Of a stretch of 64,000 bases of DNA, positions 17,801 to 41,114 are shown one piece after another. Source of the DNA: Strigamia acuminata (taxonomy: Eukaryota). Made by a program: the position numbers and the translations under genes. A model generated the notes under the pieces. That model made no database searches. It saw only the letters and a program-made list of their open reading frames with translations, and was not told the origin of the DNA. Positions within the stretch are counted from its first letter, which is position 1. Each line of letters starts with the position of its first letter. Location of the stretch: NCBI GenBank assembly GCA_949358305.1, contig OX442314.1, positions 17,546,001 to 17,610,000 of the forward strand, written 5' to 3'.

Positions 17801-17830
17801 TCAGTAAAACTGATATATAGTCTCTATATA

Positions 17831-19049: not shown

Positions 19050-22000
19050 TATATACTACTTTATAAATAAATACATAATTTAACGAAAAAAAGAAATACT
19101 TTCATTATAAATCTGCGTTTTGAAATGAAAATATAAAAATCATTTTTGGCAGGGCTTTCTGTACAATACTGGAAGTTATGTGTAAAAAAAATACAATAAA
19201 GCTTTCAAAGTGAAAATTTATACTTATAATCTGATGATACCACGTTTTGAAGTAAAAAATAAATAAATTCTAAACAAAAATTTATCCAGAAATATATTTT
19301 AACTCACAAACAGGCCATCAAGTGCTTAGAAATTTTACTAAAGTGTAATCCACACGTAATCCACAAGTTATTATCATAAATCATTTTTTAATGCAAATTG
19401 ATGTGCGAAAAAAATGTTTCTACGCACATAGCAACAGCCTATCAAATATCAATAATACTGAGTTTGTGTGCCGTAACTTGAAAACTGACCTCAATGTTTT
19501 TGTTTACACTTTCATCAAATGTTTTTCCTGATGATAATTAAAAAAATATATTAGTTGGCTGTGCAGAGTATCAGGCAGGATGGTTGGTTGTATTGTTGCC
19601 ATAGGAATGATTCATTCATTACTACAAATGGAAAATCAGGAAAAGGGCAACCCATTCAAATCTGAAATTTCATACGAATCGATGGTTTTTTCATCGCGCT
19701 ATTTCTTTTTTAATTAAATGTACTTGAAAAAAAATCCCAACTCAAAATCCTCTTATTTCCCAATTTCTTTTTTTTTTCTCAAAATCTCCGCACAATGTCG
19801 AGCTTCGCTGTTGAACAAAAGCAGCATTACAAGAGCTAAAACCCGAACTAAGTTTTATACGAAATAAAATGAAGATTTTGTCTTCACATAGAAAAATGGA
19901 ATAAAAAACTAAAGTGCAGTTCCAAAACTTGTTGAGGTTAATTTTTTCGTTCGTGATGTGACACACTCTTTCGACAAAGACGTTTTTGCAACGCCGTTAT
20001 TTCCGTTCCAATGATCAAAGACCACGTGATCTTATTTCCTGCGGCCAAAGGAAAGGGAATGGAAGGCAAGAGGAGACCTAAAAAAGTCCATTTCATTTAT
20101 TGGGACCTATTTTTCTGCAGTTGTAAACGTTGAAATGCACTAAAGTTCAAAATAAAAGAAATGGTGGCTTCAAATGATACTTGTTATAAACGAATAAAAA
20201 AAAAATAAAGAAAAACTTTTTGGAGTCAAATTATACATGATTTGACTTATTTTTGATTAATTAGTTGGAAAATCCTCATTGGAATAACAATAAACTCGAA
20301 TATTAACGAAGCATTTATTATTCCTATTTACTTTTAGGAAAATAAACAGTTCTTATTCTTATTCTTATTATTCGCTGTGTGTGTTTTCGGAATAAGTCAC
20401 GTTCGGTCGATGAACGAATATGATGTATATTATAAATCCGTCAACGAGAAAATGAGTTTTTTTTTTAAATCATTCTAATCTCACAATAGGCCAATAAATG
20501 GCGCCCGTTTAACGAAAGAAAAATTGCATTCGGGTAGATAAAAAACGAGCAGTAAATTTAGTTATGGCGCATCGTTAAATTTCAGTCAAAATAATTGAAC
20601 GTCAGCGTTAGAAACATTTTACGATTTTTATTGCAGCATTCTTTTAAGGAGTGCATTCTCCATGGCAAATGTCATTTATTCCATGTGGCAGGTCAACTTC
20701 ACATCTGTTACAACAAATGCTGTGCAAAAACTTCTCAAATTAGAATTTTAAATTTTCGTGTCTGCATGATTCACTAAACTTTTCTAACCAATATGTAAAT
20801 TAATAATAAAAAATAATAATTTAAAATAATATTTTTTTTTTACTTTTTCAATAAACGATGGAAACGTGTCTGTCGCAAGTTTAAACCTAATTTTAAAATG
20901 AAAAAATGTCCTTATCCGAGTTTTATATTAAATAAACTTTTATTTTTATGCATGAGTTGGTAGCTAAAACTCTTCATACCATCAGGGGTTAAAACATGGC
21001 ACTTGGAAACAAAATTAATGAATAAGTATATGCGCCTGTCCAACTTTCTAACCTTTTCAGCATTTATTAAGTTAACCCTTTAATCTCCTTGCTAAGTTTA
21101 AAACGAAGAAACTACACTTAGTTTACTAGAGTCATTTCGCCCACCCGCGTATAAAACGGACCTGTAATACGGTTGGAAAGAGAATTTTATGAGCCACAAC
21201 TTGTTATCGCTACCCTTTCTTTCAATGGACAGGGAATTCTTTTCTCAAAGTGACAGGAAAGGTGGAGTGTGGAATTTCGGTCCTGGTGCTAAATGTTATT
21301 ACAGCGTAATAACATGCAACCGCTACAACCAAGTAGAACTAAAAAAGTAAAACGCCTAAGAATGTTTCTTCAAGTACAATGTGATTAATTTGCTAAAATG
21401 AATGCGGTCAGAACTAATTATGGCTTCACACTTCGCTTTCTTTCAATTTGTAAAAAAAAAAAAAAAAAAAAAAAGCTGCGCAACAAAATTAATGAGAAAA
21501 GTAATGAAAAGAAAACACTTTTTCCTAGCAATTTTTTATTATTATTGAAGACTAAAGTAACATGTTTTAATGGTTTTTTCAGATTAAGTCATACATAACG
21601 TCAGATGAATATTTGGCTGTTGACTTATTTCAAGAATTTGTAATAAAAAAATTGTTTGAATAACTCAAATAACTTACGTAACACTTGACAATCGATTGGG
21701 CAATCGAAATTGCAAGGATTTTCAACTAGATTTAGCTAAATTTTAAAATCTTTGTCAAAATGTTTGTAGATATTTTTTAAATTGATTTATGTAAAAACAA
21801 TTATGTTCATTTGCATTCGATCGAAGGAATGTGGGTGTTAGAGATTGTTTCTAACACAAAAATATTGAATTATTGGGTACTTTATTTTGTTTTTCCTCTA
21901 AAATAATTCTTTACTTCTCTCCGTCTTTGCATTTATCGGAAAGTTGGCAGATATTGAACGCACTGTATCAGAATGCATTGATCGGATGCGTACCGAAGCA

Positions 22001-23904: not shown

Positions 23905-24432
23905 AGTTTATAACGCTGTCGTTACAAACAATGCATGTGTTGAACACGCACTCGCAGGTTCGCGGATATTTCTTCAAAACGAATGACCTTCAACGTGGGT
24001 GTCGGTCATTTAGAAATCTCCAATTCCGTTGAAATTTATTGCGACTCGATTCGTGTTATCGAAATGTGTTTAGGACGAAATAAATCGACTAAATCCAGAT
24101 AATTCGGTAGCTCAAATGGGGGCTTCGAATGTCACCGGGTGGATAAAAAGGTGGGAGTTAGAACGAGCACGGTTAGAAAATTAGATGCGAAAATAAAGTT
24201 GACTTGTGGTCCAAATTGTAGTTGGTCGCGAAGTGTCGGAATATCGACACGTCGCGATATTTATAACAATCGGTCAGCTGATCGATTGATCAGCTGATCG
24301 ATTGTCACATGACCCAAATTAACAAATGAGGTTAAAATGAAAACCGCGACAAGGTCGCGCGCATAAATTAAGAATGAGAACAGGTGAGGAATAAAATTGA
24401 AATTTAGGAATTGGGAAAGCTCACCCGTGACA
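23905..24432 (-). repeat. 3' LTR (528 bp)
   Basis: Identical by eye to 35887-36414. Element sense reads TGTCACGGG...GTTATAAACT, with TATAAAT at ~24259-24265 and AATAAA at 24035-24040. Confidence 0.97.
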
Positions 24433-24445
24433 TCCTCCGCCACCC
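24433..24445 (-). promoter_or_regulatory. Polypurine tract (plus-strand primer)
   Basis: Purine-rich GGGTGGCGGAGGA immediately 5' of the 3' LTR. Confidence 0.85.
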
Positions 24446-25310
24446 AGACTTTTATTGCATCGTGAACAAAAGAGTGGGTGATCCAAAGGATCGCAAAAAA
24501 TATAACATCAACATAAAAACAACATTTGATAAAATTAACAAAGGTACCATGGTACTTAAGAAAAAATGATTAACAATCAATGAGATCAGATACAGTAGCG
24601 ATGATTTTCGCGGATGGAATTCAAAATAAAATAAAAGTGATGTAACGTTGCGAAACCCTTCGCGAAAATTAAACAATTATCAAATGAAGGGGTCATATCA
24701 CGGATTAGAATCATCAACACTTCCCGTGTCGGTATCAAAAGGTAATAAAATAATAATATCACATGGAATAAAAGTCTGGAAATAAAATATTAATTAGACT
24801 AGATTAATGATTCAAAATTTTCAATAAAATAACAACACTGGACATTAAAATATGAAGAGAAATAAAAAACACTTTGATTAAACTTATAAAATGATGATTT
24901 GGCACTTCGAAAATGTGAGTTCACATTGGAGGATCGCGAATATTTCGCGAATTTCACACAATACCACATTGGTATCATAAATGTCCACATGTAAAATAAA
25001 ATAGTTCCAATTTCACACGAAGTTCGTCACCATGGTGATGTTAAATGTTCACAATAGTCTTTCTATCGCGATGTTATGCGAGTGTAAAAACAAAAGTAAA
25101 TGAAGACAGAAGACAGGACAGATTACATAATTCAAATAACGGAATATGAAAGAAGAAAATAAATGAAACACTTCGCGAAAATAAACACATTTAAACACGG
25201 CACTACACTAAACAAAAATCACTTTTGGGGAGTATTCCCATTCTGCCGGAAGGTCGCACTTTGGCCTGACCGAGGGTTTCCCTTCTCGACACCATCCGGC
25301 AGATGAAAAC

Positions 25311-28115
25311 TTATGCCACCATTTCTTGATGAAGTTCTCGAGCATACAGGCGTTGTTCCGGATCTGAGTAATGTTTTACCAAATCGAACGCCACGTCAAT
25401 GATGATTAATCGGGCCCGGGCCACATTTGCGGCCCCTCGACGATTGATTTCCTGTAGACATAAATCAATAAATGCATCGCGAAAGTACGTGTCCATCAGG
25501 TCGATAATTTCCTCAGTTTCAGGAAGGGTCAGGTTTAAATCTGACAGTGCCAGGGACCGGAAAAGAGCACTCTGCGTGTGATAAGGGATCATCAACTTCG
25601 TGCATCTGGTGGGCTGGAAGGTAAAATCACATATAATGTTCATTGATGGGATGATAGTATTTGACATGAGGATCGTTATCTCTGGTTTCTCCTTAGAGCC
25701 TGGAACAGAAATGAGGTCCTTCAACGACTTATCAGTAGGTGTGGGTGCCATGTATCGCGAAGAAACCGCTAATTTCGACATCTCCTGCACCTGAATTTCT
25801 CGAACTCTTTTCTCTTCATCGATCCTCTTTTGAAGTTCTTTTCTCTCCTTTTCTTCCCTTTCCTTCCTGACTTTCTCCTTCTTTTCAAATTCGATATTCT
25901 CTGCAGCTACTTTGGCCGCCTCTTTCTTCTGGCTCTCCTGGACGGCATATCGTTTTTTCTCCCGTTCGACCGCAAATTTCTTGACATATTTACCCATTAT
26001 TAAATGCGTCTCCCATACCAGCACAGCGAAAAATCGATCTTCATCCATGTGGATCTCTTGGTCCATTCGACTTTCGACATTGGCAGCGATGTTCTTTAGT
26101 TCTTTAAAAGTCGCATTTTTGACGGGGTAAACGTCATATTGATTTATGTCGAAATCTCGGGTGGCCATCACGTTGAATAATTCCCTCCAGCCCCTCGGCT
26201 CCAACTCCATACGAGAATTACTGATGGTAGTATTCCTCCTAAGTACCTGCAGTTCGAATGGTTCGAGGATGTCTCGAATGTAATGAAGCGTAAAAACGGG
26301 GCAATTTGAAACTCCGTAATGGTCCGTTTGTGTATAATGGGGCGGACGAGAGACAACCTTGGTGGTTTTGGTGGTCGAGAGAACGCCATCTTGTGATGAT
26401 CCGCGAGTTGAATCGGTTTGAGACGTGGATATGGAGGTAGTCCCAGTACTAAGACTTGCAATGGTGTTGGTGACGGAAATCGTCGTCTTCGTCGGTAAAT
26501 CAGTCGTCCTTATTGGAATTTGACTTTTAAAAGGTGTCGGCACTCTCTTGACAGAATGCTCGGTAGAACGCGCATCAGCTTTGGATTCTTCCTTCAGTTC
26601 TTCCTTCTCTTGATCTAATCGCGAATTGTCAATGTTTGGTACAATTTTTACCTTTAATTCCTGATCGGTTGCCTGAGGTGACACATTTAGGAATCTTATG
26701 TCCCGGTTCCGGTCCATGTAGTCGTCCAATCGGCGTTGTGACGGGTCTGGGACCGATTTTAACGTTGGGACGGGTTTGATCGGTTGTGGAAAGTTCTTCA
26801 TTAGCGTTAGAATTCCCGGCTGTGCTGGTTGCATTCTATCAGGGCTAATTTCAGGCGAGTTATCAATTGGTTTGGGTGGAATTTTCTCCAAAGTCGCGAT
26901 TTCATCCTTCTTGACCGGTGTAGTTGGTTGCACTGACTGTACAGGCTTCGGAGCGTAGCGGACTCCTGGAGCGGATTGGGCATCTCGCGAACGGTCTCTT
27001 GGCAACGTTGTGCCACCCATCATTATGGCTTGGGCGACGTGGCCACCGCTCTCCTTGTAGCGCACGGCGAAGTCTTCGTTTCCTTTTGGAACGTATAATA
27101 GTGGTTCAGGCATCGGTTGCAAACGTGCTTCGGCCGTCAGTAGATCGATTTCACGATTTAAATCCTCGATCCAAAGTCTCGCCTGTTCAGTCGTGGCGTT
27201 TGTACCCAGGAATGCAGGCAAAGTTTTGATCATCCCGGAGAACTGCAGGTCTGTGAGATACTGCTCCCTCGCATAATCAGTCAAATTTGCGATTTCCTCG
27301 TTCGTCATCCTGGGGACCGCCTCATGTTGGCACCTGATCGCGTTTCCCATCGCGTAGATCCATCGGCGGGGTGCTATACCGCGTTCCTCGGCCAGTTGCT
27401 GGACTCTGGCCCAGTACCAATAATGGGTAAAACGAAACCTCAAAATCGCGGCGATGCTTCCTTGTACAATTCGCGTCGGCGGCAGGACCCACTCATAAAT
27501 GCGCACTCCGTCTGCGTACTTGAAACGGAGGACCCAATTGAAATAGATCCGCATCCATTCCCTGAACTTGCACCGGCGCAATTCGCCTGCGCCCCCGCAT
27601 GCTCGGCACACAATTTCTTTGACTGGCGGCGTTGTCTCAACTCCCCATCCTGAACAAATACAGCAGACTTCAAAATTTGGGAAAGATTGTTCGAGCGGTT
27701 CGTCTGGGTGAAAGTGCGGATATATCCACTCTCCCTTAGCATGAATGGGTGGAATGGGCAGGTTTTTTGGATATTTGAGTTTCTTTTGTGGGTCGCCATT
27801 TTGGTGTTTACTATTTGACATGATGGTGGTAATTCGCGAATAAATAAAACGAAATGCTATAATTGATAGCACAAAATACGGCACGCGATAAACTACATAA
27901 TAGACAACACGGAATGTTCGCGAGATCAATCGCGTGTTGTAAACTAAGTACCGGCATGTACGGAATAAAAGATGCATGGCCTTAGAGGCTAGCTCTCTAG
28001 GATTGGTCAGTTTAAAGAATGCTGAGTAATCATATCTGTTTCCAGGCGCAAACCAATAAGTTATTCCCCCAAAAGGTTTAATTCTTGACCAAATTTCTTT
28101 AAAAATAATACGCAT
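25311..28115 (-). CDS. Retrotransposon ORF3, 934 aa, unknown function (not recognisably Env); DnaJ-type zinc-finger motifs, S/T/P-rich linker, coiled coil
   Basis: Uninterrupted 2.8-kb ORF in the env position. Contains CCICSGWG...CRACGGAG at aa151-177 and a KE-rich helix at ~aa715-785. An alternative start is possible at Met99 (27821). Confidence 0.85.
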   Translation of the reverse strand: MRIIFKEIWSRIKPFGGITYWFAPGNRYDYSAFFKLTNPRELASKAMHLLFRTCRYLVYNTRLISRTFRVVYYVVYRVPYFVLSIIAFRFIYSRITTIMSNSKHQNGDPQKKLKYPKNLPIPPIHAKGEWIYPHFHPDEPLEQSFPNFEVCCICSGWGVETTPPVKEIVCRACGGAGELRRCKFREWMRIYFNWVLRFKYADGVRIYEWVLPPTRIVQGSIAAILRFRFTHYWYWARVQQLAEERGIAPRRWIYAMGNAIRCQHEAVPRMTNEEIANLTDYAREQYLTDLQFSGMIKTLPAFLGTNATTEQARLWIEDLNREIDLLTAEARLQPMPEPLLYVPKGNEDFAVRYKESGGHVAQAIMMGGTTLPRDRSRDAQSAPGVRYAPKPVQSVQPTTPVKKDEIATLEKIPPKPIDNSPEISPDRMQPAQPGILTLMKNFPQPIKPVPTLKSVPDPSQRRLDDYMDRNRDIRFLNVSPQATDQELKVKIVPNIDNSRLDQEKEELKEESKADARSTEHSVKRVPTPFKSQIPIRTTDLPTKTTISVTNTIASLSTGTTSISTSQTDSTRGSSQDGVLSTTKTTKVVSRPPHYTQTDHYGVSNCPVFTLHYIRDILEPFELQVLRRNTTISNSRMELEPRGWRELFNVMATRDFDINQYDVYPVKNATFKELKNIAANVESRMDQEIHMDEDRFFAVLVWETHLIMGKYVKKFAVEREKKRYAVQESQKKEAAKVAAENIEFEKKEKVRKEREEKERKELQKRIDEEKRVREIQVQEMSKLAVSSRYMAPTPTDKSLKDLISVPGSKEKPEITILMSNTIIPSMNIICDFTFQPTRCTKLMIPYHTQSALFRSLALSDLNLTLPETEEIIDLMDTYFRDAFIDLCLQEINRRGAANVARARLIIIDVAFDLVKHYSDPEQRLYARELHQEMVA

Positions 28116-28485
28116 AGTTTAAATTATAAAATAAAAAATAATAATAAATTCATTTGATTATTAAAATTAAGCTTCGCGACATTTCATTCGTCTATTAATT
28201 GCATGTGCCCCGTGCGAGGCTAAACCAATAACGTCACCTAGTGACAAAAATGATAACCATAAACCTCAGAGTAGATAGTTTAACTTTTATCAATACCACA
28301 ATGCAACACAAAAAACGACAAACATTGTACGAAACATTAAGTTAGTTAATGAACGGAAACGAACACAAATAAACGAAGACAAATGAACGAAACAAAACGG
28401 AATCAACGAAACTTTAGACACATAAATAAAAATTTCAATTAACAGAAATTACAAAACCCAAATTAAAATCCGCATGGCTACATTC

Positions 28486-28486
<1 letters not shown>

Positions 28487-28522
<36 letters not shown>
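28487..28522 (-). repeat. Internal A36 tract overlapping the pol stop codon
   Basis: 36 T on the + strand; the AA of the pol TAA stop begins the run. Confidence 0.9.
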
Positions 28523-28527
<5 letters not shown>

Positions 28528-31500
28528 TTAGATGCAATCACATGAGCGGAAAAAATGTCAAAAGTTGTTAAAATGAATTTTTCGACATGTAAGTCGATTA
28601 AATTAATTTCTTCGATATTTGGTGCTTCCGCATCATCAAAATGCCAATGTCTTAATTCGATTACATTATATGGGGGTGATTTTCTCCCCTCATTGTCCAT
28701 TAATATTACAGTGTTCGGACCAACTAATCTGTGGATAATATGAATTCCCTCAGTTCGTTGTCGCAATCCAGCGGCAAATTGGCGATCGGCAGATGATTGC
28801 TGGCGATTTTTTAAAGTTACCCAATCACCTGGTTTGAAATCATGAGGCCTTCTGCCACGATCAAACCATCGTTTGTGCCTGATTTTTGCAGCTTGCAAAT
28901 TCGCCGCTGCTTGTGAACGTAAGGTTCGCATGTATTCGTGTAAATTCTCCGCCTCTGACGGCGGCAAAGGTTCACCATCGTCCGAATCGCTGTCCAAGTC
29001 CCCCGGAAATCTGGCCTCTTGGCCAGTAACCATTTTAAAGGGCGAGAATTTTAACGACACTTGATATGCGGAATTTATCGCGAGTACAAAATATCCGATG
29101 TGTATGTCCCATCTTGAATGATCATCAATGTAGGCCAGGATGCAGTTTTTTAGCGACTGATTTAATCTTTCTGCCAAATTGCTCTGCGGATGATACACCG
29201 CTGTGTACCTGTTCACTGCTCCTAATTGTTGGCATTGATTTTGGAATTCGGGGGATCGAAATGTTGGTGCGTTGTCACTTATTATGACCTTCGGGAACCC
29301 CCATCTTTTACAGAATTTGACAATTTGTCTAACAGTAGTGGGAATATTCGCGTTTTCAGTGAGTCTTACGTCCAGCCACCTGCTTGCAGCATCCACCATC
29401 ACGAATGCATAGCAGTTTCCACCTGTCGAGCGGGGCTTTTTGCCATAATAATCGATATAAATGGCCGAAAATAAATGTCTTGGTTTAGACATCAGCAATT
29501 TGCCATATGGCAATCGGTTTAAAGGTTTTGCTCGCTGACATGCGTCACAAACCAATACCCATGTTTGCACATCTTCGCGCATTTTCGGCCAAAAAACTCT
29601 TGATTTGAGTCTTTGCAGGGTTTTTTCTATTCCCATGTGCCCTCCGATCGGTGGATAATGCAGCGCTCGAAAATAACGTTCGCGAAGTTCAACGGTCGGC
29701 AAATAAATTTGACGCCGTTTGCGAAACTTATTTATGTCAACAGGGGGAAAACGACACAACAAACCTTTTGACATGCCAAAATCATTGCAATTGTGCAAAA
29801 TAAAATTGGCACGTTCCGGTTCATCTGGGAGCGTGTGCAAAGTCAAGTATTCTATCAATTCCCGTGAGTCTTGGTCAATTTGTTGCGCTGCGATGATTTC
29901 TGCTGCGCTGGGTAGGACTACGAATGCTGGATGGTCCACTGGTGGGTCGTGGTCCAACTCCGCCTGTCTCTCCAATTCGTTTGGTGGTTCGTCACCCTCA
30001 TCCTCATCATAATTCCTTCGCGGTCTACGTCGTGGTCTCGGAGTTCTTCTCTGAGTTAATGACGGACGAAAATAAATTGTTTCGGGCGTTTGCGTGCCCA
30101 AATTCGGCCCGTAACTCTCGTCTGATGATGATTCGGAGCTGTCCGACGTCGCGAAGGAAGGTTCGGGTCTGTAACCCGATGGTCCGGCTTGTGGCTCTTC
30201 TGGTTCTACAAAAGGCTTGGAAAATGGATGAGGACTTATGGGTGAAGGAATAGGAGAGATTGGTGGTGAAGGTGTATAAATTGGGGTAGGAGTTGGTTTC
30301 AAAATTGGTTTAGGTTTTCCAATTGGTATTGGAATACCAGACTGTTTTTTACGTGGTCTGCCAACTCGACGTTTTGATGGCACCTCTTCAGGTGGCAGCA
30401 CAGGTGCCGTAGGTTTTCGTAACCTTGGTGACGGCACAATTGGTTCCGGAATTCCTGTCTTACGCTTTTTTAGACGTCCTGGCACTCGTTTCGGAACTAT
30501 TTCCTCTGGTACCGTTGGTAGAACTGGAAGTTCATCATCAGGAAGCGGAGGTGTTGGCGGCGTAACAATTATTTGTGGTGGTTGTGGCACCCCAATTGGT
30601 GGAATTTGAGGCGGCACAATTAATTGTTTTTTAGGCCTACCAACTTGCCTTTTCACCATTGTTGGTGGAATTAAACGCCGTGTTTTTGGTGACGTATCCA
30701 CACCGACTGGATCCGCAGCTTTCCTTTTTCTAGGCCGACCCACAGGACGCTTTCCAATTGGTGGCGTCGGTGGAGGTGGTGTTGGAGGAACCAGTGTTGG
30801 ATCCTGAATTCGTGCTCTTGTTCTGGTTGAAATTGCACGACGGGATCGCGGTGAAAATGTTGGGACTGTTGGGTCCTTTTTGGGTCGTCCCACTGGTCGT
30901 TTTAATGGTACCACATGTTTTGGCGACATCTTCTTTTTCTTTTTTGATTTAGTTGGCGTCAAAGCTAAAATAGAATAATTTCTATTATTACGAAAATTAT
31001 TTTTTGACTTACAGTACGCGAATTGGGGTTCATCAATTAGGTCTTCGATTACTCTTAACTCTGGCCAATCTGAAATGTCGTCAAAAAATGCAAGATAGCA
31101 TGCTTCATCTACAAGAGGACTATCATCTTCCTCCTCTTCTTCTGCAGGATCGACAGGTGCGCGGCTTAGTGCATCTGCGACACGATTTTTACATCCAGAA
31201 ATGTAGATGAATGTAAAACGATATTCACTTAGGGATAAAACCCATCTTGCCAGTCTACCTCGTGGTTCGCGCTGTTGAAAAAGCCATTTCAATGACATGT
31301 GGTCACTTTCCAAATAGAAGTCCATCATTTCAAGGTAGGGTCTAAATCTTTTAACCGCCCAGACAGCCGCAAGACACTCAATTTCAGTCACTGGATAATT
31401 TTTTTCGGCGCTATTTAATGCTCGCGATGCAAATGCGACTGGATAACGATTTCCTTCATTATCAATTTGCATTAAAGCAGCCCCAAGACCTGAATAACTT

Positions 31501-33803
31501 GCGTCAGTCTGCAGGATGAATGGTTTTTTCCAATTTGGGAAATTACGTTTTAAAGTTGGTTCTGCAACAAATTGTTTTAAATGTTCAAACGCATGTTGGT
31601 GAGCGTCAGTCCAAACCCAAGTGCAATCCTTTTTAAGAAGAGGGCGGAAAACTTCACAAATTTTTGCAAAATTTGGAATAAAAGTTTGGTAGTAGCCCAC
31701 CATTCCCTTAAATCTCTGCAGTTCGCGTAAGTTGATTGGTGCAGGATAACTTTGGATTGCAGTCACCTTTTTTGGATTTGGAGTAATTTGGCCCGCCTCG
31801 ACGATATGGCCCAGAACCTCCAAGCGCCGACGACACAGTTCTGTTTTGTCTGCATTCATTGTAAATCCTGCATCGTATAATTCACCAAGCACAATTTTTA
31901 AATGTTCAACATGTTCTTCATATGTCTTGCTGAAAACGATCACATCATCCAAATATACAAACACAAACTTATACAGGTGTTTCGCGAGAGTCTTGTTCAT
32001 CGCGCGTTGTAACGTTGCCGGTCCATTAATGGGCCCAAAGGGCATTCTCACGTACTCAAAGAGTCCACGGTGAGTTATAAATGCCAAATATCTTTCATCG
32101 CCTTTTCTGACTCCGAGTTGATGAAAAGCTTCGCGACCATCAATTATTGAAAACCAATGGGCTCCACCAAGGTACGCGAAAATGTTGTCAATGTCAGGTA
32201 ATGGATATACGTCAGGGACCGTTTGAGTGTTAATTGGGCGAAAATCCATTGCAGTTCGCCAATCGCCCGTTTTTTTGGGCACTACGACCGGCGCAACTGC
32301 ACAATCACTCATTGAACGCCTAATTATCCCCTGTTTTAATTTTTGATCAATGTACTTATCAATTATTAGTTTCTTGGCTGGATTCACTGGCCGCACTGGA
32401 ACATGGACGGGTCGAAATCCTGGCTTCAAGTTGACCTCGAACTCGGTATTGTTGCAGAGTCCGACTTCCTCTCGAAAAACATTCGCAACTGGTTGTAAAG
32501 TTTTGATGAGAAGTTGGATTTGTGGAACCGTCAGTTGATTCCAGAGCTGATGATAGATCCAATCCAGACATGTTGGGTCTTCATTTGGCTGATAAGATAA
32601 AAAATTACATTGATTAATATGTTCGATACTGTCACCTTCATCCTTAATCTTCTGCTTTTCAGCTTCTTTGAGAATATCTTCTTTCAAAAGTCGCGATGCT
32701 TGTTGATTCAATTGTTGAACAATTGGTTTAACTTTAGCAATACGTTTGGATTGTCGTTTCCAACGTTGAACTTGGCTGAATGATGGTTTTATCTGAAAAC
32801 TAGAAACTCTACGCGAAAAAGAAGTTGATCTTTCTTGCCGTTTAGGCGACCAAATATTTGACCACTCATTAGAATCGCGATGTTTGATCTTTTTAACACG
32901 AAATTGTGCATCATCGTTTGGATATTCAAACACTTCTCGTGCGAGTGGGCGATGGTCAAGCAGAACACAATTGATTTTAGATGTAGGGGCAGGTAATATC
33001 GCTAATTTGGGTTCATTGCTATATTTTCTATCAATTGGTAACAACAAAACTGGTTCTGATCGTGATGCTTCGTCAATTGTCAAAAACTTACGTCGTTCTT
33101 CAGATCCCTCTAAATACCATTCTTGTCGACCATGCAACGTGCAGAGGCCTACTGCACGGCAAAAGTCGCGTCCCAAAAGCAGATCTTGAGATGTTTCGGG
33201 AACAACAAGACAGACAAATTTAATAATTGCGCGGGGTCCTCTAACTGCAAGTTGTACAGAGCCTGTCACTTTGACAGTGTCGTTCGTGGCAGTTCTGACA
33301 AATTCATTTAACGGCATCATTTGCAGTTCCATCTTGTCTTTTAATTGATTAAAAAGTTTGTCCGACATTATGCAGGTTTGTGCTCCAGAATCGAAAATCG
33401 CGATGAAAGAGACGTCTGACCACGCAATTCTTACACATGGTGCATCTGCCTTAAATCTATCGCGTTTAGTAATTTCAATTATGGGTTCCTGCGTTTTAAA
33501 TAACTCCGCGGGTGATAACATCACAAATTTCGCGTCCACTTGGTTGATCGAGCCATGCGGAGGCAAAGTCGCGGTGCTAACTCTGGAAATAGTATTAATA
33601 AATTCATTAGTGATGATCTTACTTACCACTTTGTCCTTATTTTCAGGTTGAAGAATTGTCAACTTGGGTTTTTCCGGTTGCAGTGTGATGATAGGTGATT
33701 TTGGAATAACAGAAGTTGATTTCTCTTGAAGTTTAAGCTCCTGGGGAGCGATTGATGAATTGTTTTGAATTAAAGTTTTATGAGTAGCGCTTGCACTCGT
33801 CAA
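28521..33803 (-). CDS. pol: Pol polyprotein (protease, RT, RNase H, AT-hook-like insert, integrase); translated by -1 frameshift from gag, with the frame open up to ~33930
   Basis: Protease IFDSGAQ; RT MPFG and YLDD; RNase H QTDASYSGLGA...ADALSR; integrase H-x6-H...CDAC with D (IYID), D (SDNA) and E (AERLN). Confidence 0.96.
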
Positions 33804-33862
33804 TGTTGGCGCTGGTGATTGTGTTGTACTTTCTCGTGTTTCTGCACAGTTTTCGGGTAAGT

Positions 33863-33932
33863 CGGGGCAATTGGTGTTTACTTTTGGCCTGGCTTTGTTG
33901 CCCCGCTTCCTGGCAGGCCTTGGAAGTTTTCC
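33863..33932 (-). promoter_or_regulatory. -1 ribosomal frameshift signal (G_GAA_AAC + H-type pseudoknot)
   Basis: Heptamer at 33932-33926, 6-nt spacer, stem 1 GGCCUG/CAGGCC, stem 2 CGGGGCAA/UUGCCCCG. The -1 frame runs without a stop into pol. Confidence 0.85.
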
Positions 33933-35782
33933 GACCGCTCGAAGAGTTTATGACAGATTAGGCAAAATGGACGCCATGTGTCATTTTCGACCATATACCA
34001 GCGGTTCTTCTTGGTTCGGCGCCAAGTTGTGTGATCTGGGCGCTTGACCGATTCCGGTGGCGATGGCGTTGGATCGAAAGTGGTAACGCGAGTCGAGCAA
34101 ACATGATCCTTTGGAACGTTTGACGGAACTTCAAGTTTTGTCGTCGCGATTTTAACTTCATTTTTCGCGGCCGCCGTCTTCGTTTCCGTTTTGACAGCTG
34201 CTGCTGCCACATCCTGTTTGATTTCCTCTGGGTCATATCCACTACTTTCCGACTCCTCATCTGCTCCATACGGGCGAGGAACTTCCGGCTGGCCTTCCAT
34301 TGCTAGCAGAACCGCCGCAATTTGTTTGGAAAGCTGCTGTCGCGAAAACTGTCCAGATCTAGAAAAAGTAGAAAATTTGGGCTTCTCCACCTTAGCTTCT
34401 TCCACGGGCTTCAGCATCGTAGGAATAGTATACTCCTTAGGAAGGGGCATAAAGGCCTGATCTACTATTCCACTTTGCTTAAATTCGAGCGATCGCAGTG
34501 AATCAAGTTGCAACCTATTGTCCACATCATTTCCGACTCGAATCGCCTTTTCAAGACTATTTACTCCCCAATTTCGCATCAATAATACTACCTGCGTTTG
34601 CAGCATATTTTGGGCCTTTTCCCACCTTAGTGTTCTTTCTTTATAGCCTGCAATTTGCAAATAATGAGCAATTTCACTCAAAAATGCAGTTGTAGACTCG
34701 CCCGGTCTTTGCTTGCGTTGGCTCAATTTAGCATTCGCTGCGGCCGTATTCATTGAATATGTTTGTCGGAAAAGTACTTCAAACTCTTTCCAAGTCTTGG
34801 GTTTAAGTTTCATAGTCGTCCACCAAGTCAACGCGCGACCCTTTAAAGCAGTGGCTGCATAAGCCTTTAAATAATCGCGCTCCGGAGCTCCCACCTGCCA
34901 CATGTGTGAAAAAAGCTCTGCCAAAAATGAATTCACTGTATCAAAGTCTGTCTTGTCCGGATTAAAATGCGGAATTTTTTCCACTTTCCATTTTCGACGA
35001 CCAGCCACGTCATCCGAATCAGGTAAAGATGGGAGCGACAACTGTTCTTTAGTTGCTGGCTCTGGCTTCGGATACTTCATTTTTGAATACAAAATTGATG
35101 ACATTACCTCTTCATTAACTTTAGACGCGTCATCGCGCGCACTTTGAAGCGATGGTGGGCTTTTAGCATGTTCACGTGGAAGTCCTTGATTTCTGTCTAT
35201 GCCCGCTCGTGGATGGCTTGTCGACGCGGATCGATGTCGTGGCTCTGTGTTCGCTTGATGACGCGATGCTGTTGCCGCTCGAGTCCTGCCCGTGGAGGGC
35301 TCTGCAAATAATGAAGACGTCTTCCTCCCACTCGTCTGTTGGCCACGGGTTGCCGAATATCCCTCTGAATGTACGGACCCAGGAGAACGCGAAGCGGGCT
35401 GAGTTAGAATGCTTTCCCTGCAGTCCCTTAAAAACTGTTGGAATTCGGTACGCAGACCGGCAAAAAATGATGCTTGAGGATTTGTTTGACCCCCTTGACC
35501 AATTGGTGGTGTCGACGAAACGCTAACTGTTTCAGTCGGCGACACTCGCGACGTTGTTGTGTATACAACCATTGGTTGCACCCTTGCGCTTGCTGTACTT
35601 GCGACAGTTGTCAAAATGTCGGTTGAAAATGTCACCAACGGTGAAGTTGTAACATTTACAACCGTCGTCGCTCGCGCTTGCCTTCTGTTGTCGCGCATTT
35701 CCTCCAATAATTCCAACTCGTTTATGTCAAAAGGGTTCAGAGCTGGATATTGAATACCATTACCTTCTAACGGCGACGCCAT
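33878..35782 (-). CDS. gag: Gag (capsid-like retrotransposon gag domain)
   Basis: 634 aa, first ORF after the PBS. LKGRALTWW...W.EF...F...Y...RKQRPGES...F motif. No complete CCHC knuckle. Confidence 0.92.
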   Translation of the reverse strand: MASPLEGNGIQYPALNPFDINELELLEEMRDNRRQARATTVVNVTTSPLVTFSTDILTTVASTASARVQPMVVYTTTSRVSPTETVSVSSTPPIGQGGQTNPQASFFAGLRTEFQQFLRDCRESILTQPASRSPGSVHSEGYSATRGQQTSGRKTSSLFAEPSTGRTRAATASRHQANTEPRHRSASTSHPRAGIDRNQGLPREHAKSPPSLQSARDDASKVNEEVMSSILYSKMKYPKPEPATKEQLSLPSLPDSDDVAGRRKWKVEKIPHFNPDKTDFDTVNSFLAELFSHMWQVGAPERDYLKAYAATALKGRALTWWTTMKLKPKTWKEFEVLFRQTYSMNTAAANAKLSQRKQRPGESTTAFLSEIAHYLQIAGYKERTLRWEKAQNMLQTQVVLLMRNWGVNSLEKAIRVGNDVDNRLQLDSLRSLEFKQSGIVDQAFMPLPKEYTIPTMLKPVEEAKVEKPKFSTFSRSGQFSRQQLSKQIAAVLLAMEGQPEVPRPYGADEESESSGYDPEEIKQDVAAAAVKTETKTAAAKNEVKIATTKLEVPSNVPKDHVCSTRVTTFDPTPSPPESVKRPDHTTWRRTKKNRWYMVENDTWRPFCLICHKLFERSENFQGLPGSGATKPGQK

Positions 35783-35868
35783 GATGAAAATAACGTGAAA
35801 AGAAAATTATAATAATTAATGCAAAATGAGAATACTAACTATCTCGCTGGTTCCCTCGATAAAGCAGA

Positions 35869-35886
35869 ATCCTGTCTAGCTCGCCA
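35869..35886 (-). promoter_or_regulatory. Primer-binding site, probably for tRNA-Arg(ACG)
   Basis: TGGCGAGCTAGACAGGA directly abuts the 5' LTR. It resembles the complement of an animal tRNA-Arg(ACG) 3' end (TGGCGAGCCAGCCAGGA) with 2 differences. Confidence 0.75.
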
Positions 35887-36414
35887 AGTTTATAACGCTG
35901 TCGTTACAAACAATGCATGTGTTGAACACGCACTCGCAGGTTCGCGGATATTTCTTCAAAACGAATGACCTTCAACGTGGGTGTCGGTCATTTAGAAATC
36001 TCCAATTCCGTTGAAATTTATTGCGACTCGATTCGTGTTATCGAAATGTGTTTAGGACGAAATAAATCGACTAAATCCAGATAATTCGGTAGCTCAAATG
36101 GGGGCTTCGAATGTCACCGGGTGGATAAAAAGGTGGGAGTTAGAACGAGCACGGTTAGAAAATTAGATGCGAAAATAAAGTTGACTTGTGGTCCAAATTG
36201 TAGTTGGTCGCGAAGTGTCGGAATATCGACACGTCGCGATATTTATAACAATCGGTCAGCTGATCGATTGATCAGCTGATCGATTGTCACATGACCCAAA
36301 TTAACAAATGAGGTTAAAATGAAAACCGCGACAAGGTCGCGCGCATAAATTAAGAATGAGAACAGGTGAGGAATAAAATTGAAATTTAGGAATTGGGAAA
36401 GCTCACCCGTGACA
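35887..36414 (-). repeat. 5' LTR (528 bp)
   Basis: Direct repeat of 23905-24432. Confidence 0.97.
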
Positions 36415-37186: not shown

Positions 37187-40100
37187 TTTTTTTTTTATTA
37201 TTATTGTTTATTTTCCAAAAGAAGGGTGCCCCCCAACAGCCGAAGCCTACAGGGGGGGGACACCCATCAAACCACCTAAACAACCATCGTCAATTACAAA
37301 AACAAAAAGAGATCAAAAAAAAAAAAAATCATAATTCAAAATAGAACATCAAAAGAAACACAACAGCAAAAACAAAAAAACAAAATTAAAATTACATTAA
37401 ATTAGCATCAAGACCCAACAACAAAAGCATGCTCAATACCAGAGAGAGTACAATTAAAAATGTCAATATCACCCAAAAAGACATTAACGCTCCGTAATAA
37501 ACGCCCAACAGGGGAGTAAGAGTTAGAAACAGAGAAAGTAACACGTGGGGTGCGCAACTCCCTCCCCACCCAAGGAACATTAAAGTGCAAGCAAGATAAC
37601 AGACAGGGAGCCACGACCTTGCCACTGATCAAACGAAAAACGAAAATGCAGTCAAGAAGAATCATATGGGAACCAACAGAACGCAAACCCAAAGCCACGA
37701 GCACCTCCGAATAAGAATAATTAAATAGGTGATAAAAAAATCTCCTATAAATCATCCAAGCAAAATTACGTTGCAGCCCCTCGAGACGGTTAAGCAGATA
37801 GACAGCACAGCCCCTCCAAACCAAAGACGAAAACAAAATACGAGAACGAACCAAAGAAATAAACAACAAGCGAAGCGGACCCGGAGACGTAAAAACAAAA
37901 GAGAGACGGAAGAGAATGCCCAAAACCCTCGTACACTCACCGACCAATCGATTAACATGATTTCTAAAGATAAAACAATCATCGAAAGTCACACCCAGAT
38001 CCCTTATCACCGAACGTCGTGGAATCAAAACACCACCCAACGTGTAGGGATGCAAAAGCTTCACAGCACGACGGGAGAAAGAAAGCACTACTGACTTGTT
38101 GACATTTAGGCTCATGCAGTTTGCATCAGTCCAACATTGTACTCTATTCAAATAACGCTGCAGATCCTCGCAATCCCCAACAGTATCAATGCTGCGGCCC
38201 AACTTGGTATCATCCGCAAAGAACGAGTGGGACAGACCACGAAGAAAGTAGGATAAATCGTTGATAAACAGCTTGAACAACACAGGACCCAGAATAGAAC
38301 CCTGTGGGACACCAGAATTAGTCACGTAACAACTTGACGTAGTAACCCCATTACACTTAAGAAAGTTATTCCTCCGACCTAAATAACTAGCAAACCACTT
38401 AATAAAACGCGGGGACAAACCGTAAAACTCCAGCTTGATCAACAGTAGATCGTGGCAAATTCGATCAAAAGCCTTCGCGAAATCCAAGTAGATGACATCA
38501 AATTGGCCCCTGGTATGAAAAGAGTCGAATACCTCATTATAAAAATTCAGGAGATTCAGCTCCACAGACTTCCCACATGTAAAACCAAACTGGGCATCCG
38601 TAGTAAATCCATCTACCCACGAGCTCATCCTGGCAAGCACAGATAGTTCAAATAACTTAGCCAAACTACTCAATAAAGAGATAGGTCTAAAATTGGATAC
38701 GCTGGTGCGCTTACCGCTCTTGAAAACAGGGACCACCAACGCATCCTTCCAAGCAACCGGAAAAACCCCGCAAGAAAGCGACAGATTGAACAAATAAACC
38801 AGAGGAACCAATAACACCTCAATACATCCCTTAAGGATGAACGGCGGAAACCCGTCCAAACCACAGGCACCATGCGATCGGAGCTTCACCGATGCCGCTC
38901 GAACATCAATTCCAGACAAAGCCGGAATGTCCAGACGATCGGCAACAAAAGAATCACTGGAGCTTTTAATCCCCATCTCAGAGTCCAGATACTCATTTAC
39001 CGCAGCAGTATTGTGATAGCCCGATACAATCGACCCAAAATGATGACAAAAGAGTCTTCCCAAATCCGCGGACTCAGCGGTCAAAACCCCTCCATCGTCC
39101 AGGACAATGTCCGAATGGGCAGCACGATACCTGGGCTTTACAAATCGCCAAAAGTTCCTAGGATTATAGCGGACAGAATCCGCAATCACCCCAAAGTACG
39201 CCTCACGATCCCTCCTCATCTGAACCTTAGCACCCCTGCGACACTCCGCAAATCTAAGATAGTCACATCCACGACCATAACGCTTGAATTTCCGATGAAA
39301 AACACGCTTGTCCCTCAATAAAACCCTTAAGTCAAAGGAGAACCACGGGGGAAACTTAGAATCCATTCGAACCCTACGCGGAATATAACGACGAACCGCC
39401 TCCGCAAGAACGTCAGACAACATCCCAACCCCAACATTAACATCAGAGCAGCTGAGAACACAAGACCAATCATAGCCCGCCAAAAAAGTATATAGAGAAT
39501 GATAATCCCCAGCTCTAAAGCAAAGATAGTCACCTCTCGCAGCAGGGACACCAACAATAGACAGGCGAAACGCCAAAGGCGGATGATAATTGTCGGGAGA
39601 AACCAAGCAAGCATCAGCAAGAGAAACACACAGGTCGGAACAGTTCGAAAAAATCAAATCCAACAAATCGCCATGACAATTCAAAACTCGGTTAAATTGA
39701 GAGACCCCCACAAAACAAGAAAATTCATTTAAGGAAAGGGCCGAGGCTCGAACCACCGACAAGGCACGCCCAAGATCAAATGGAATCCAAGAAATCCCCG
39801 GAAGATTAAAATCTCCAAGCAGAATAACATCCCCAGAAAAGGACGCCACGGACTCACGACACCGGTCCAAGCAGGCCTGCAGAACCAGAGTCGGAGTACG
39901 AGGAGGAATGTAACAACACCCAACCAAAATCCGTCTAGATCCACAACCCAACTCGACCCATAAGCTAAGATCACCATACTCCAAATCAAAACGACGATAG
40001 GAGTTAATCGTGGAATTAACAGCACATAACAACCCACCACCACGGGTGAGGCCGGAATTAATGTCGCGATCATTACGGAAAACCTTAAATTGACTAGTGA

Positions 40101-40203
40101 AATAATCGCCCTCATAAATCTCGTCATTAAACCAAGTTTCAGATAAACAGTAAACGTCAGCGCCAACCTCAGTAAGACCCATTCCTATGCGTTTTGAGTG
40201 TAG
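37187..40203 (-). mobile_element. 5'-truncated CR1-like (T1/Q-type) non-LTR retrotransposon
   Basis: APE endonuclease + RT ORF, T-rich 3' UTR, terminal stem-loop, and AATAAA-C-(AAT)3-poly(A) tail. No ORF1. The 5' boundary is approximate and no TSD was found. Confidence 0.9.
37408..40182 (-). CDS. LINE ORF2: AP endonuclease + reverse transcriptase (endonuclease N-terminus truncated)
   Basis: Endonuclease motifs CLSETW, RGGG, YIPP, GDFNLP, LDLIF, DNYHPP. RT motifs NFRPISLL, YLDFAKAFD, GVPQGSILGP, FADD, RDLGV. Confidence 0.93.
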   Translation of the reverse strand: MGLTEVGADVYCLSETWFNDEIYEGDYFTSQFKVFRNDRDINSGLTRGGGLLCAVNSTINSYRRFDLEYGDLSLWVELGCGSRRILVGCCYIPPRTPTLVLQACLDRCRESVASFSGDVILLGDFNLPGISWIPFDLGRALSVVRASALSLNEFSCFVGVSQFNRVLNCHGDLLDLIFSNCSDLCVSLADACLVSPDNYHPPLAFRLSIVGVPAARGDYLCFRAGDYHSLYTFLAGYDWSCVLSCSDVNVGVGMLSDVLAEAVRRYIPRRVRMDSKFPPWFSFDLRVLLRDKRVFHRKFKRYGRGCDYLRFAECRRGAKVQMRRDREAYFGVIADSVRYNPRNFWRFVKPRYRAAHSDIVLDDGGVLTAESADLGRLFCHHFGSIVSGYHNTAAVNEYLDSEMGIKSSSDSFVADRLDIPALSGIDVRAASVKLRSHGACGLDGFPPFILKGCIEVLLVPLVYLFNLSLSCGVFPVAWKDALVVPVFKSGKRTSVSNFRPISLLSSLAKLFELSVLARMSSWVDGFTTDAQFGFTCGKSVELNLLNFYNEVFDSFHTRGQFDVIYLDFAKAFDRICHDLLLIKLEFYGLSPRFIKWFASYLGRRNNFLKCNGVTTSSCYVTNSGVPQGSILGPVLFKLFINDLSYFLRGLSHSFFADDTKLGRSIDTVGDCEDLQRYLNRVQCWTDANCMSLNVNKSVVLSFSRRAVKLLHPYTLGGVLIPRRSVIRDLGVTFDDCFIFRNHVNRLVGECTRVLGILFRLSFVFTSPGPLRLLFISLVRSRILFSSLVWRGCAVYLLNRLEGLQRNFAWMIYRRFFYHLFNYSYSEVLVALGLRSVGSHMILLDCIFVFRLISGKVVAPCLLSCLHFNVPWVGRELRTPRVTFSVSNSYSPVGRLLRSVNVFLGDIDIFNCTLSGIEHAFVVGS

Positions 40204-41114
40204 CTACAAAATCTCGACTCGACTCAAGCGGGCTTACTGTAATCCCTCGGCGACATGCAATTCAAGCCACAAGGATGTAAATACTTGTAGATAGAAATAC
40301 TTTCATGTTAAAACAGACTAAAACCAAGAATCTATGTTTACATCTCACGTTTGAATTCACACAAAAATGAAATATTTATACATATTTATACACATTTTTT
40401 GGCTGTTATTAAATTTTCTATTTATTATTTTTAAATCGGGCAAATTTCTTGGAAAATTGTTGTTGTTGTAATGGCTTGTCCGAATTAATTATCATCAGAA
40501 ATTGTATTGATTTTTGTATTAATTTATGTAGAGAACTTTGTTGGTGCAATAAATGTTTGATGAATCTTTAAAAATTCTCTGCAAACAAAGTCGTATTCAT
40601 CACAAAAAGGTTCTTTCAATTGCATTCGCACATCTGCTTTAAAACTAAATGATTTAAACACATTTTCTTTTGTGAACTAGAAGGAAACGAAATGGGAAAT
40701 TGTCCAATGTGCACACTTGTGTTAACCCAGATGTCATTGTAATTTTTATCTGTGGGTTTCAATTCACCCAACATCTTTCAAGCAAATTCTTTCTTGGTTT
40801 TTGTGGCAGTGGGGCGCACAATAAATAAATCAATTATCACGTCTACGTATTTTCAAAGGCAAAACATAGGACCAAAAATAAAATAACTAACACAAACAGG
40901 CTTTATATTTTCAGCATGTTACCTTCTGCTATCGCCATTTTTAATTTTTTCACGAGAAAATGACAAAATTACTCAAAAGTCCACATCGTCTGCATTTGTT
41001 TTTAAATAATTCCACTATTTTGCCGCTAGGGTATCGATGAGCATGCGCAAAATGGTAGCAAGTTGCGCTTCTGTTTCTTCTGTGGCCCGTACTCGTTAGG
41101 AAAAATAGATTAAG

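What the first reader, a model, noticed from the sequence alone, without database searches (positions are those of the whole stretch)
29900..31000. Pol carries a ~400-aa insert with five AT-hook-like motifs between RNase H and integrase
Seen: about 500 aa separate ADALSR (aa~876) from the first integrase Zn-finger His (aa1382). The segment contains KRPVGRPKK, KRPVGRPRKRK, KRQVGRPKK, KRVPGRLKKRK and KRRVGRPRKK spaced by Pro-rich linkers, followed by EEPQAGPSG, a Ser/Asp run and RRTPRPRRRPRR. Established: this spacer is usually about 100 aa in Ty3/Gypsy Pol; a GRP core flanked by K/R defines AT-hooks (HMGA family) that bind AT-rich minor grooves; known Gypsy targeting modules (chromodomain, GPY/F) lie C-terminal to integrase; host HMGA1 has been found in retroviral preintegration complexes. 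Inference: the element may encode its own HMGA-like tether or nuclear-localisation module N-terminal to integrase, steering integration to AT-rich DNA. The insertion site here is very AT-rich.
Basis: partly seen in the sequence, partly recalled or inferred. Interest (0 to 1): 0.8.

Follow-up and report, generated by a model that had tools for sequence, protein, structure and literature searches.

The report
AT-hook-like array ahead of retrotransposon integrase
An intact, recently inserted gypsy-type jumping gene carries about 400 extra amino acids, with five repeated basic motifs resembling AT-hook DNA grips, just ahead of its integrase; the tested part is conserved in a sister copy and likely helps the integrase hold DNA, but steering to AT-rich sites is untested.

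Summary
Confirmed. The window holds an intact 12.5-kb Ty3/Gypsy LTR element (identical 528-bp LTRs). Its Pol has 500 aa between RNase H and the integrase zinc finger; 324 spacers in 274 other Pols have median 91, maximum 483, and none has a basic GRP motif. The five motifs are far beyond chance but non-canonical: V or P replaces the Arg of the RGR core. The only such variant in a review's AT-hook table is in Drosophila D1. Against one diverged sister copy, 68 insert codons give dN/dS 0.15 and motif 2 keeps VGRP through silent changes. By homology with Ty3 the insert would sit at the integrase N-terminus. Canonical AT-hooks end the integrase in 12 of 191 other Pols (under 1 expected). Best reading (0.5): a built-in LEDGF/HMGA-like DNA grip for the integrase. 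AT-directed targeting rests on one site and is untested. The closest foreign relative, a Strigamia maritima gene model, lacks the motifs. This scan earlier noted AT-hooks in the same linker of dead fungal chromoviruses. New variant of a known kind; interest 0.55.

The parts
35887..36414 (-). 5' LTR, 528 bp, identical to the 3' LTR; on the element strand begins TG, ends CT rather than CA
35867..35886 (-). primer-binding site (starts TGG directly after the 5' LTR); tRNA identity not tested
   Evidence: inference from position
33878..35806 (-). gag ORF, 642 aa stop to stop; Retrotrans_gag domain, no zinc-knuckle hit
33926..33932 (-). likely -1 frameshift heptamer in the 70-nt gag/pol overlap
   Evidence: sequence; inferred
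28521..33947 (-). pol ORF, 1808 aa stop to stop: protease, RT (aa 556-716), RNase H (to aa 929), insert, integrase; no premature stop
29919..31151 (-). insert, about 410 aa (aa 933-1343): acidic start, basic Pro-rich middle (aa 991-1245: 54 K/R, 67 P, 12 D/E), Ser/acidic and Arg-rich end; predicted mostly disordered
30930..30950 (-). Lys run KSKKKKK (aa 1000-1006), NLS-like
30876..30902 (-). motif 1 KRPVGRPKK (aa 1016-1024); also meets the extended AT-hook rule
30807..30851 (-). Arg-rich predicted helix (aa 1033-1047); 6 silent and 0 replacement differences over aa 1028-1048 in the sister copy
30720..30752 (-). motif 2 KRPVGRPRKRK (aa 1066-1076); 7 silent, 1 replacement difference, VGRP kept
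30627..30653 (-). motif 3 KRQVGRPKK (aa 1099-1107)
30459..30491 (-). motif 4 KRVPGRLKKRK (aa 1153-1163), degenerate
30345..30374 (-). motif 5 KRRVGRPRKK (aa 1192-1201)
30015..30050 (-). Arg-rich RRTPRPRRRPRR (aa 1300-1311)
28701..29918 (-). folded integrase (aa 1344-1749): N-terminal extension domain, zinc finger, catalytic core, SH3-like end; no chromodomain or C-terminal hook found
28487..28522 (-). A36 run directly at the pol stop
25311..28118 (-). third ORF, 935 aa stop to stop, no family found
24433..24445 (-). polypurine tract
23905..24432 (-). 3' LTR; flanking 4-mers match 3 of 4, so no perfect target-site duplication

Best explanation
The insert is a basic, proline-rich, predicted-disordered segment of Pol, under purifying selection where tested, that likely stays on the N-terminus of the mature integrase and likely acts as a built-in DNA grip. 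Its five AT-hook-like motifs and basic patches would bind target DNA or the cDNA ends with high avidity and weak, possibly AT-leaning, specificity. It would do in cis what host LEDGF/p75 and HMGA1 do for HIV integrase. Shown: sequence, repetition, position, selection in 68 codons. Inferred: cleavage position, DNA binding, role in integration.
For: Position: mature Ty3 RT (4ol8, 478 aa) matches to chain residue 476 at the position of aa 930, so it ends just after the ADAxSR motif. The model's aa 1344-1749 aligns with Ty3 integrase residues 17-413 (Z 22.1, rmsd 23.3, 347 aligned). So the insert lies between the homologous RT end and the integrase N-terminal extension domain, which in Ty3 binds the LTR and TFIIIC. 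Selection: dN/dS 0.15 over aa 1028-1095 against one diverged copy in run X3 (23.5 silent differences on 59.7 sites, 11.5 replacements on 144.3; Fisher p 3e-7; at most 0.25 if all 7 unlisted differences were replacements). Indels seen in diverged contigs over the insert total 3 and 15 nt. Precedent for the variant: Drosophila D1 hook 6 is listed as RPVGRPSA. Convergence: 12 of 191 other Pols carry basic GRP hooks in the integrase tail, against 0.7-0.9 expected, 0 of 1000 shuffles reaching 12; this integrase has none there. Functional analogy: LEDGF NLS plus AT-hooks tether HIV integrase and bind the LTR; an AT-hook peptide fused to the HIV integrase N-terminus improves solubility and concerted integration.
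Against: No motif has the Arg before Gly, whereas 23 of 24 basic GRP motifs in the other Pols do and the RGR core is what enters the minor groove. VGRP occurs once against 35 RGRP in one review's table and never in another's lists. Constraint is as strong in the Arg-rich helix as in motif 2, so selection may be on charge or a protein contact. The closest foreign relative (Strigamia maritima T1IZH5: 74% and 57% identical on either side) has a spacer of about 175 aa with no GRP motif, though it is a gene model that may have dropped the segment. 0 of 324 other spacers have such motifs. The selection test is one pair, 68 of about 410 codons, limited to copies at least 80% alike, with no RT control. 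A hydrophobic stretch at aa 1341-1347 could be a second protease site that frees the insert (unproven).
Confidence: 0.5

Rival explanations
1. The segment is mainly a multi-part nuclear localisation signal that brings the integrase or the pre-integration complex into the nucleus; the GRP cores are incidental.
For: Lys run and KKRK match K[KR]x[KR] three times. Every motif is flanked by K/R. The groove-binding first Arg is missing. Ty1 integrase depends on its own nuclear targeting sequence (abstract start of PMC2490736).
Against: An NLS does not need G-R-P five times in register. VGRP is kept through silent changes in motif 2. 400 aa is far more than import needs.
Confidence: 0.17
2. The segment binds the element's RNA (packaging, primer annealing or keeping integrase on the genome in the particle), making up for a Gag without a zinc knuckle.
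For: Gag gives no zinc-knuckle hit. Motif 1 meets the extended AT-hook rule (7 and 4 basic residues at 6-20 aa), a class that binds RNA about tenfold better than DNA. An Arg-rich helix and an Arg-rich run are present.
Against: Only 1 of 5 motifs meets that rule. Pol is likely made by frameshift, so at low copy per particle (inference). Hooks on other Gypsy integrases are the canonical DNA-type RGRP.
Confidence: 0.13
3. The protease cuts on both sides and frees the segment as a small HMGA/D1-like protein that acts on host chromatin or on the element's LTR, not on integration.
For: Hydrophobic stretches that could be protease sites flank it (aa 950-956, 993-997, 1341-1347; by eye). The block before the folded integrase is conserved in the Strigamia protein. 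The same caveat was raised for CopiaMBD.
Against: No cleavage site was tested. In Ty3 the single cut lies just after RNase H.
Confidence: 0.13
4. A neutral low-complexity expansion in a tolerant linker.
For: This linker tolerates long inserts (16 of 324 over 200 aa; one of 321 aa among 16 measurable metagenome loci). The closest foreign protein lacks it.
Against: dN/dS 0.15, with 22 of 36 differences at third codon positions. Motifs repeat at protein level with no DNA tandem repeat.
Confidence: 0.07

Closest known systems
Ty3/Gypsy (Metaviridae) elements with a reader module on integrase: chromoviruses (C-terminal chromodomain) and PHD-bearing elements
   Same: Domain order PR-RT-RH-IN; an accessory module next to integrase that could bias integration (PMC5053271 and PMC6673714, passages). 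PHD fingers sit in the same RH-IN spacer in P0037 and P0046.
   Different: No folded reader domain; instead five short linear basic motifs in about 400 predicted-disordered residues on the N-terminal side; no chromodomain found.
CopiaMBD of the centipede Strigamia maritima (de Mendoza et al. 2019, PMC6673714, passages)
   Same: Arthropod LTR element with its own DNA-binding module next to integrase; the closest named relative of this Pol is also from S. maritima.
   Different: Copia, not Gypsy; captured folded host domain with binding shown; here no host homologue was found and binding is untested.
Host AT-hook proteins: HMGA1, LEDGF/p75, Drosophila D1
   Same: Several GRP motifs flanked by K/R in a disordered chain; D1 hook 6 has the same PVGRP core; LEDGF and HMGA1 assist HIV integration.
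   Different: Element-encoded and in cis; no RGR core in any motif; no sequence homology beyond the motifs.
Engineered P5-IN and Sso7d-IN fusions of HIV-1 integrase (PMC11054761, one passage)
   Same: A DNA-binding or AT-hook peptide on the integrase N-terminus.
   Different: Artificial and short; improves solubility and activity, not shown there to target.

Membership tests
Ty3/Gypsy LTR retrotransposon | LTRs, PBS, PPT, gag, and pol in the order PR-RT-RH-IN | tested here: met
   best solved-structure match for RT-RH is Ty3 (E 4e-80)
Ty3/Gypsy LTR retrotransposon | TG...CA ends and 4-6 bp target-site duplication | tested here: not met
   ends TG...CT; flanking 4-mers match 3 of 4. Some Gypsy clades have non-CA ends (recalled), so this does not exclude membership.
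Canonical AT-hook (HMGA type) | GRP core flanked by K/R within 10-15 aa | tested here: met
   4 of 5 motifs (definition)
Canonical AT-hook (HMGA type) | central R-G-R that enters the minor groove | tested here: not met
   0 of 5 have Arg before Gly (requirement)
Canonical AT-hook (HMGA type) | Pfam AT_hook profile hit | tested here: inconclusive
   no hit at E 10, but canonical RGRP tails of P0058, P0230, P0239 also gave none at E 0.1
Canonical AT-hook (HMGA type) | binding to AT-rich minor groove | not testable with these tools
   needs a binding assay
Extended AT-hook (Filarsky 2015) | more than 3 K/R at 6-20 aa on both sides of GRP | tested here: inconclusive
   met by motif 1 only, 1 of 5
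Chromovirus | chromodomain at the integrase C-terminus | tested here: inconclusive
   no Pfam chromo hit; the last 59 aa were not modelled, and Ty3's vestigial chromodomain was seen only by structure
Errantivirus (env-bearing) | third ORF is an envelope fusion protein | tested here: inconclusive
   ORF3 has no Pfam or Atlas match and no C-terminal hydrophobic anchor by eye; not folded

The most novel reading that the evidence does not exclude
AT-hooks are an overlooked class of element-encoded integration tethers that Gypsy lineages have gained repeatedly at either end of integrase. This arthropod lineage has built a D1-like five-hook array on the integrase N-terminus that steers new copies into AT-rich, gene-poor DNA without a host cofactor.
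Probability: 0.25. Interest if true: 0.75.

Novelty: new variant of a known kind. Interest (0 to 1): 0.55.

Why it matters
How animal Gypsy elements without a chromodomain choose their sites is largely open. If this array binds DNA and biases insertion, it is a natural, in-cis version of the LEDGF/HMGA tether and of the engineered AT-hook-integrase fusion. It would also give a function to the hooks seen at the tail of about 6% of the other Pols examined. Unlike the dead fungal cases this scan noted earlier, this copy is intact, has identical LTRs and has near-identical and diverged sister copies, so site bias and selection can be measured from one genome assembly.

Tried and rejected
No genome is held for the window, so insertion sites of other copies could not be collected. 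Contigs from the runs did not give usable flanks. No RNA holder was listed, which says nothing on expression. Homologue searches for the insert found nothing at E 0.001 among 994-3164-aa proteins (7965 candidates scored). The search of shorter proteins with aa 1240-1490 gave only P0141 (1 of 1287 candidates). The HMMER search of 1.84 billion representatives listed 150 hits, two above 60% identity, both S. maritima. The Atlas gave no usable hit for the insert or for ORF3; PDB sequences gave none for motifs 1-2. Viral contigs gave no relative. Metagenome contigs gave none with the whole Pol and only distant integrases with the pair alignment (54 loci), none with a hook in an ORF that also had RNase H or the zinc finger. 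The Pfam AT_hook blank was rejected as evidence because positive controls also failed. Origin by DNA tandem duplication is not visible: no tandem array in the insert, only short weak repeats. The low pLDDT of the insert is partly due to having no alignment depth there. A resemblance between aa 141-147 and aa 1342-1348 as paired protease sites was judged too weak to use.

Full report
The element. The finding lies in a 12,510-bp LTR retrotransposon on the minus strand, 23905-36414. Its two 528-bp LTRs are identical. A primer-binding site and polypurine tract are in place. Gag (642 aa), Pol (1808 aa stop to stop) and a third ORF (935 aa) are all open. Pfam gives protease, RT, RNase H, zinc finger and integrase core in Ty3/Gypsy order. 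The flanking 4-mers match 3 of 4 and the LTR ends in CT, not CA. Three runs of one organism hold the element. Near-identical contigs have several times the depth of a flank contig (1532-1679 against 188; 578-600 against 107; 94-123 against 27), which suggests several young copies, though the tool warns that depth is not copy number. Contigs about 82-87% alike also cross the insert. The closest named relatives are two Strigamia maritima proteins, so the host is likely a myriapod or other arthropod (inference).

The observation. ADALSR ends at aa 929 and the zinc-finger His is aa 1430. With profiles built from the hits I measured 324 spacers in 274 of 292 other proteins (18 lacked one of the two domains; the set includes 26 cluster mates and chimeric gene models): median 91 aa, quartiles 79-109, 16 over 200, 6 over 300, maximum 483. 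So 500 is the longest seen, but long spacers exist. None of the 324 holds a GRP with basic flanks. Here four GRP and one GRL recur in register after KR. Four or more GRP arose in 8 of 20,000 shuffles, and KRxxGR[PL] never more than once (pattern chosen after seeing the motifs). No DNA tandem repeat explains them. AlphaFold gives pLDDT mostly under 50 for aa 929-1319, apart from a helix at aa 1033-1047, and a confident fold from about aa 1344; alignment depth in the insert is nil, so disorder rests also on composition (67 Pro and 54 K/R in 255 aa).

Are they AT-hooks? They meet the loose definition, GRP flanked by K/R (PMC11354804 and PMC4615771, passages). They fail the strict one: the RGR core enters the minor groove and all five have V or P before the Gly. 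In the other Pols 23 of 24 basic GRP motifs have Arg there. [quoted passage not shown] The second paper's lists have no VGRP but its text reports that core changes are tolerated in Drosophila TAF1. Pfam is uninformative because canonical controls also miss. I therefore call them AT-hook-like, not AT-hooks.

Selection. I laid three runs on 30620-30910. One contig of run X3 differs at 43 places over 283 bases; 36 were listed. Of these 22 are third positions. Over aa 1028-1095 there are 23.5 silent differences on 59.7 sites and 11.5 replacements on 144.3 sites: dN/dS 0.15, Fisher p 3e-7, at most 0.25 if all 7 unlisted ones were replacements inside the span. Motif 2 has 7 silent changes and 1 replacement outside VGRP. 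The Arg-rich stretch aa 1028-1048 has 6 and 0; the linker between motifs 2 and 3 has 3 and 5. Differences in motifs 1 and 3 lay near the ends of the laid stretch and were mostly not listed; the contig aligns through motif 1 and breaks off at its first codon. Motifs 4 and 5 were not tested. So the segment is constrained, but not only at the cores, and this is one pair. Against wide conservation: the S. maritima protein T1IZH5 is 74% and 57% identical on either side yet has about 175 aa of spacer, with a GPSG and the pre-integrase block but no GRP motif. It is a gene model and may have skipped the segment; I could not check.

Where it ends up. Mature Ty3 RT (4ol8, 478 aa) aligns to residue 476 at aa 930, so in Ty3 the cut falls just after RNase H. 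The model's aa 1344-1749 aligns with Ty3 integrase 17-413 (Z 22.1, 347 aligned, rmsd 23.3 because domains are placed differently). The insert thus sits in front of the N-terminal extension domain, which in Ty3 contacts the LTR and TFIIIC (bioRxiv 10.1101/2021.07.27.453949, passages). A second cut that frees it cannot be excluded.

Convergence. Of 191 Pols with at least 300 aa after the zinc finger (from 266 hits), 12 carry a basic GRP hook in the integrase tail; shuffles give 0.7-0.9 and never 12 in 1000. They are not all independent: P0052 and P0054 are sisters, and they group with this element in a quick tree (SH-aLRT 98, long branch). Two of 120 relatives have a PHD finger in the RH-IN spacer. 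This scan's earlier, unchecked notes describe AT-hooks in the same linker (e1-7640960, e1-7640953) and in the tail (e1-7587238, e1-7503489) of dead fungal chromoviruses; they are leads, not support.

Mechanism. LEDGF's NLS and AT-hooks tether HIV integrase and bind the LTR end (PMC11354804 section 15). HMGA1 restores salt-stripped pre-integration complexes (PMC3420096, passages). An AT-hook peptide fused to the HIV integrase N-terminus improves solubility and concerted integration (PMC11054761, one passage). The most likely reading (0.5) is a built-in DNA grip on integrase. Rivals are nuclear import (0.17), RNA binding (0.13), a cleaved-off chromatin protein (0.13) and neutrality (0.07). The narrower claim of AT-directed targeting has one data point: 86% AT within 50 bp and 74% within 500 bp, against 66% for the host part of the window (0.4% and 0.3% of windows reach these). 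One site, a background that includes exons and other elements, and selection after insertion (discussed in PMC6673714, passages) leave it untested.

Novelty. Searches of the held library for AT-hook with retrotransposon, gypsy, integrase, polyprotein, transposase or VGRP (also 33 for PHD in the spacer, 0 papers) listed no paper describing AT-hooks encoded in an LTR element's Pol. I saw most of these only as listings; PMC5053271, PMC4738411 and PMC2706977 were read as passages and do not describe it. Most subscription journals and repeat-database reports are not in the library, and bioRxiv supplements are closed. Element-encoded reader modules are a known kind (chromodomain, PHD, MBD). Verdict: new variant of a known kind, interest 0.55.

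Noticed in passing
window 25311-28118 (-): Third ORF of 935 aa inside the element: CxxC pairs near the start, Pro- and Thr-rich middle, charged coiled-coil-like end; no Pfam or Atlas match; 12 silent against 3 replacement differences among the listed rows, so likely a real lineage-specific gene.
   Followed up: partly
window 23905 and 36414: LTR ends TG...CT with an imperfect 4-bp target-site duplication despite identical LTRs; could reflect non-CA end chemistry, a point change or recombination between copies.
   Followed up: partly
window 28487-28522: A36 run on the element strand right at the pol stop, 370 bp before ORF3.
   Followed up: no
P0050, P0052, P0054, P0058, P0085, P0178, P0201, P0230, P0232, P0234, P0239, P0263: Basic GRP hooks, 11 of 12 proteins with canonical RGRP, in the integrase C-terminal tail of 12 of 191 Gypsy Pols; worth a systematic survey.
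   Followed up: partly
P0037, P0046, P0040: Gypsy Pols with other passengers: PHD in the RH-IN spacer (P0037 with SCAN, P0046 with Dam), SET after integrase (P0040).
   Followed up: no
window 37408-40203 (-): Open 931-aa endonuclease-RT ORF of a non-LTR element 1 kb from the 5' LTR.
   Followed up: no
window 10804-11937 (-): Single-ORF 377-aa secretin-family (7tm_2) receptor.
   Followed up: no
window 41078-43484 and 47713-49799: Duplicated host segments about 6.6 kb apart, 78-89% alike; the exons look like synaptobrevin (recalled, not tested).
   Followed up: no
window 17825-19055: Element of about 1.2 kb with 97-98% complementary terminal inverted arms of about 295 bp, likely a non-autonomous DNA transposon.
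   Followed up: no
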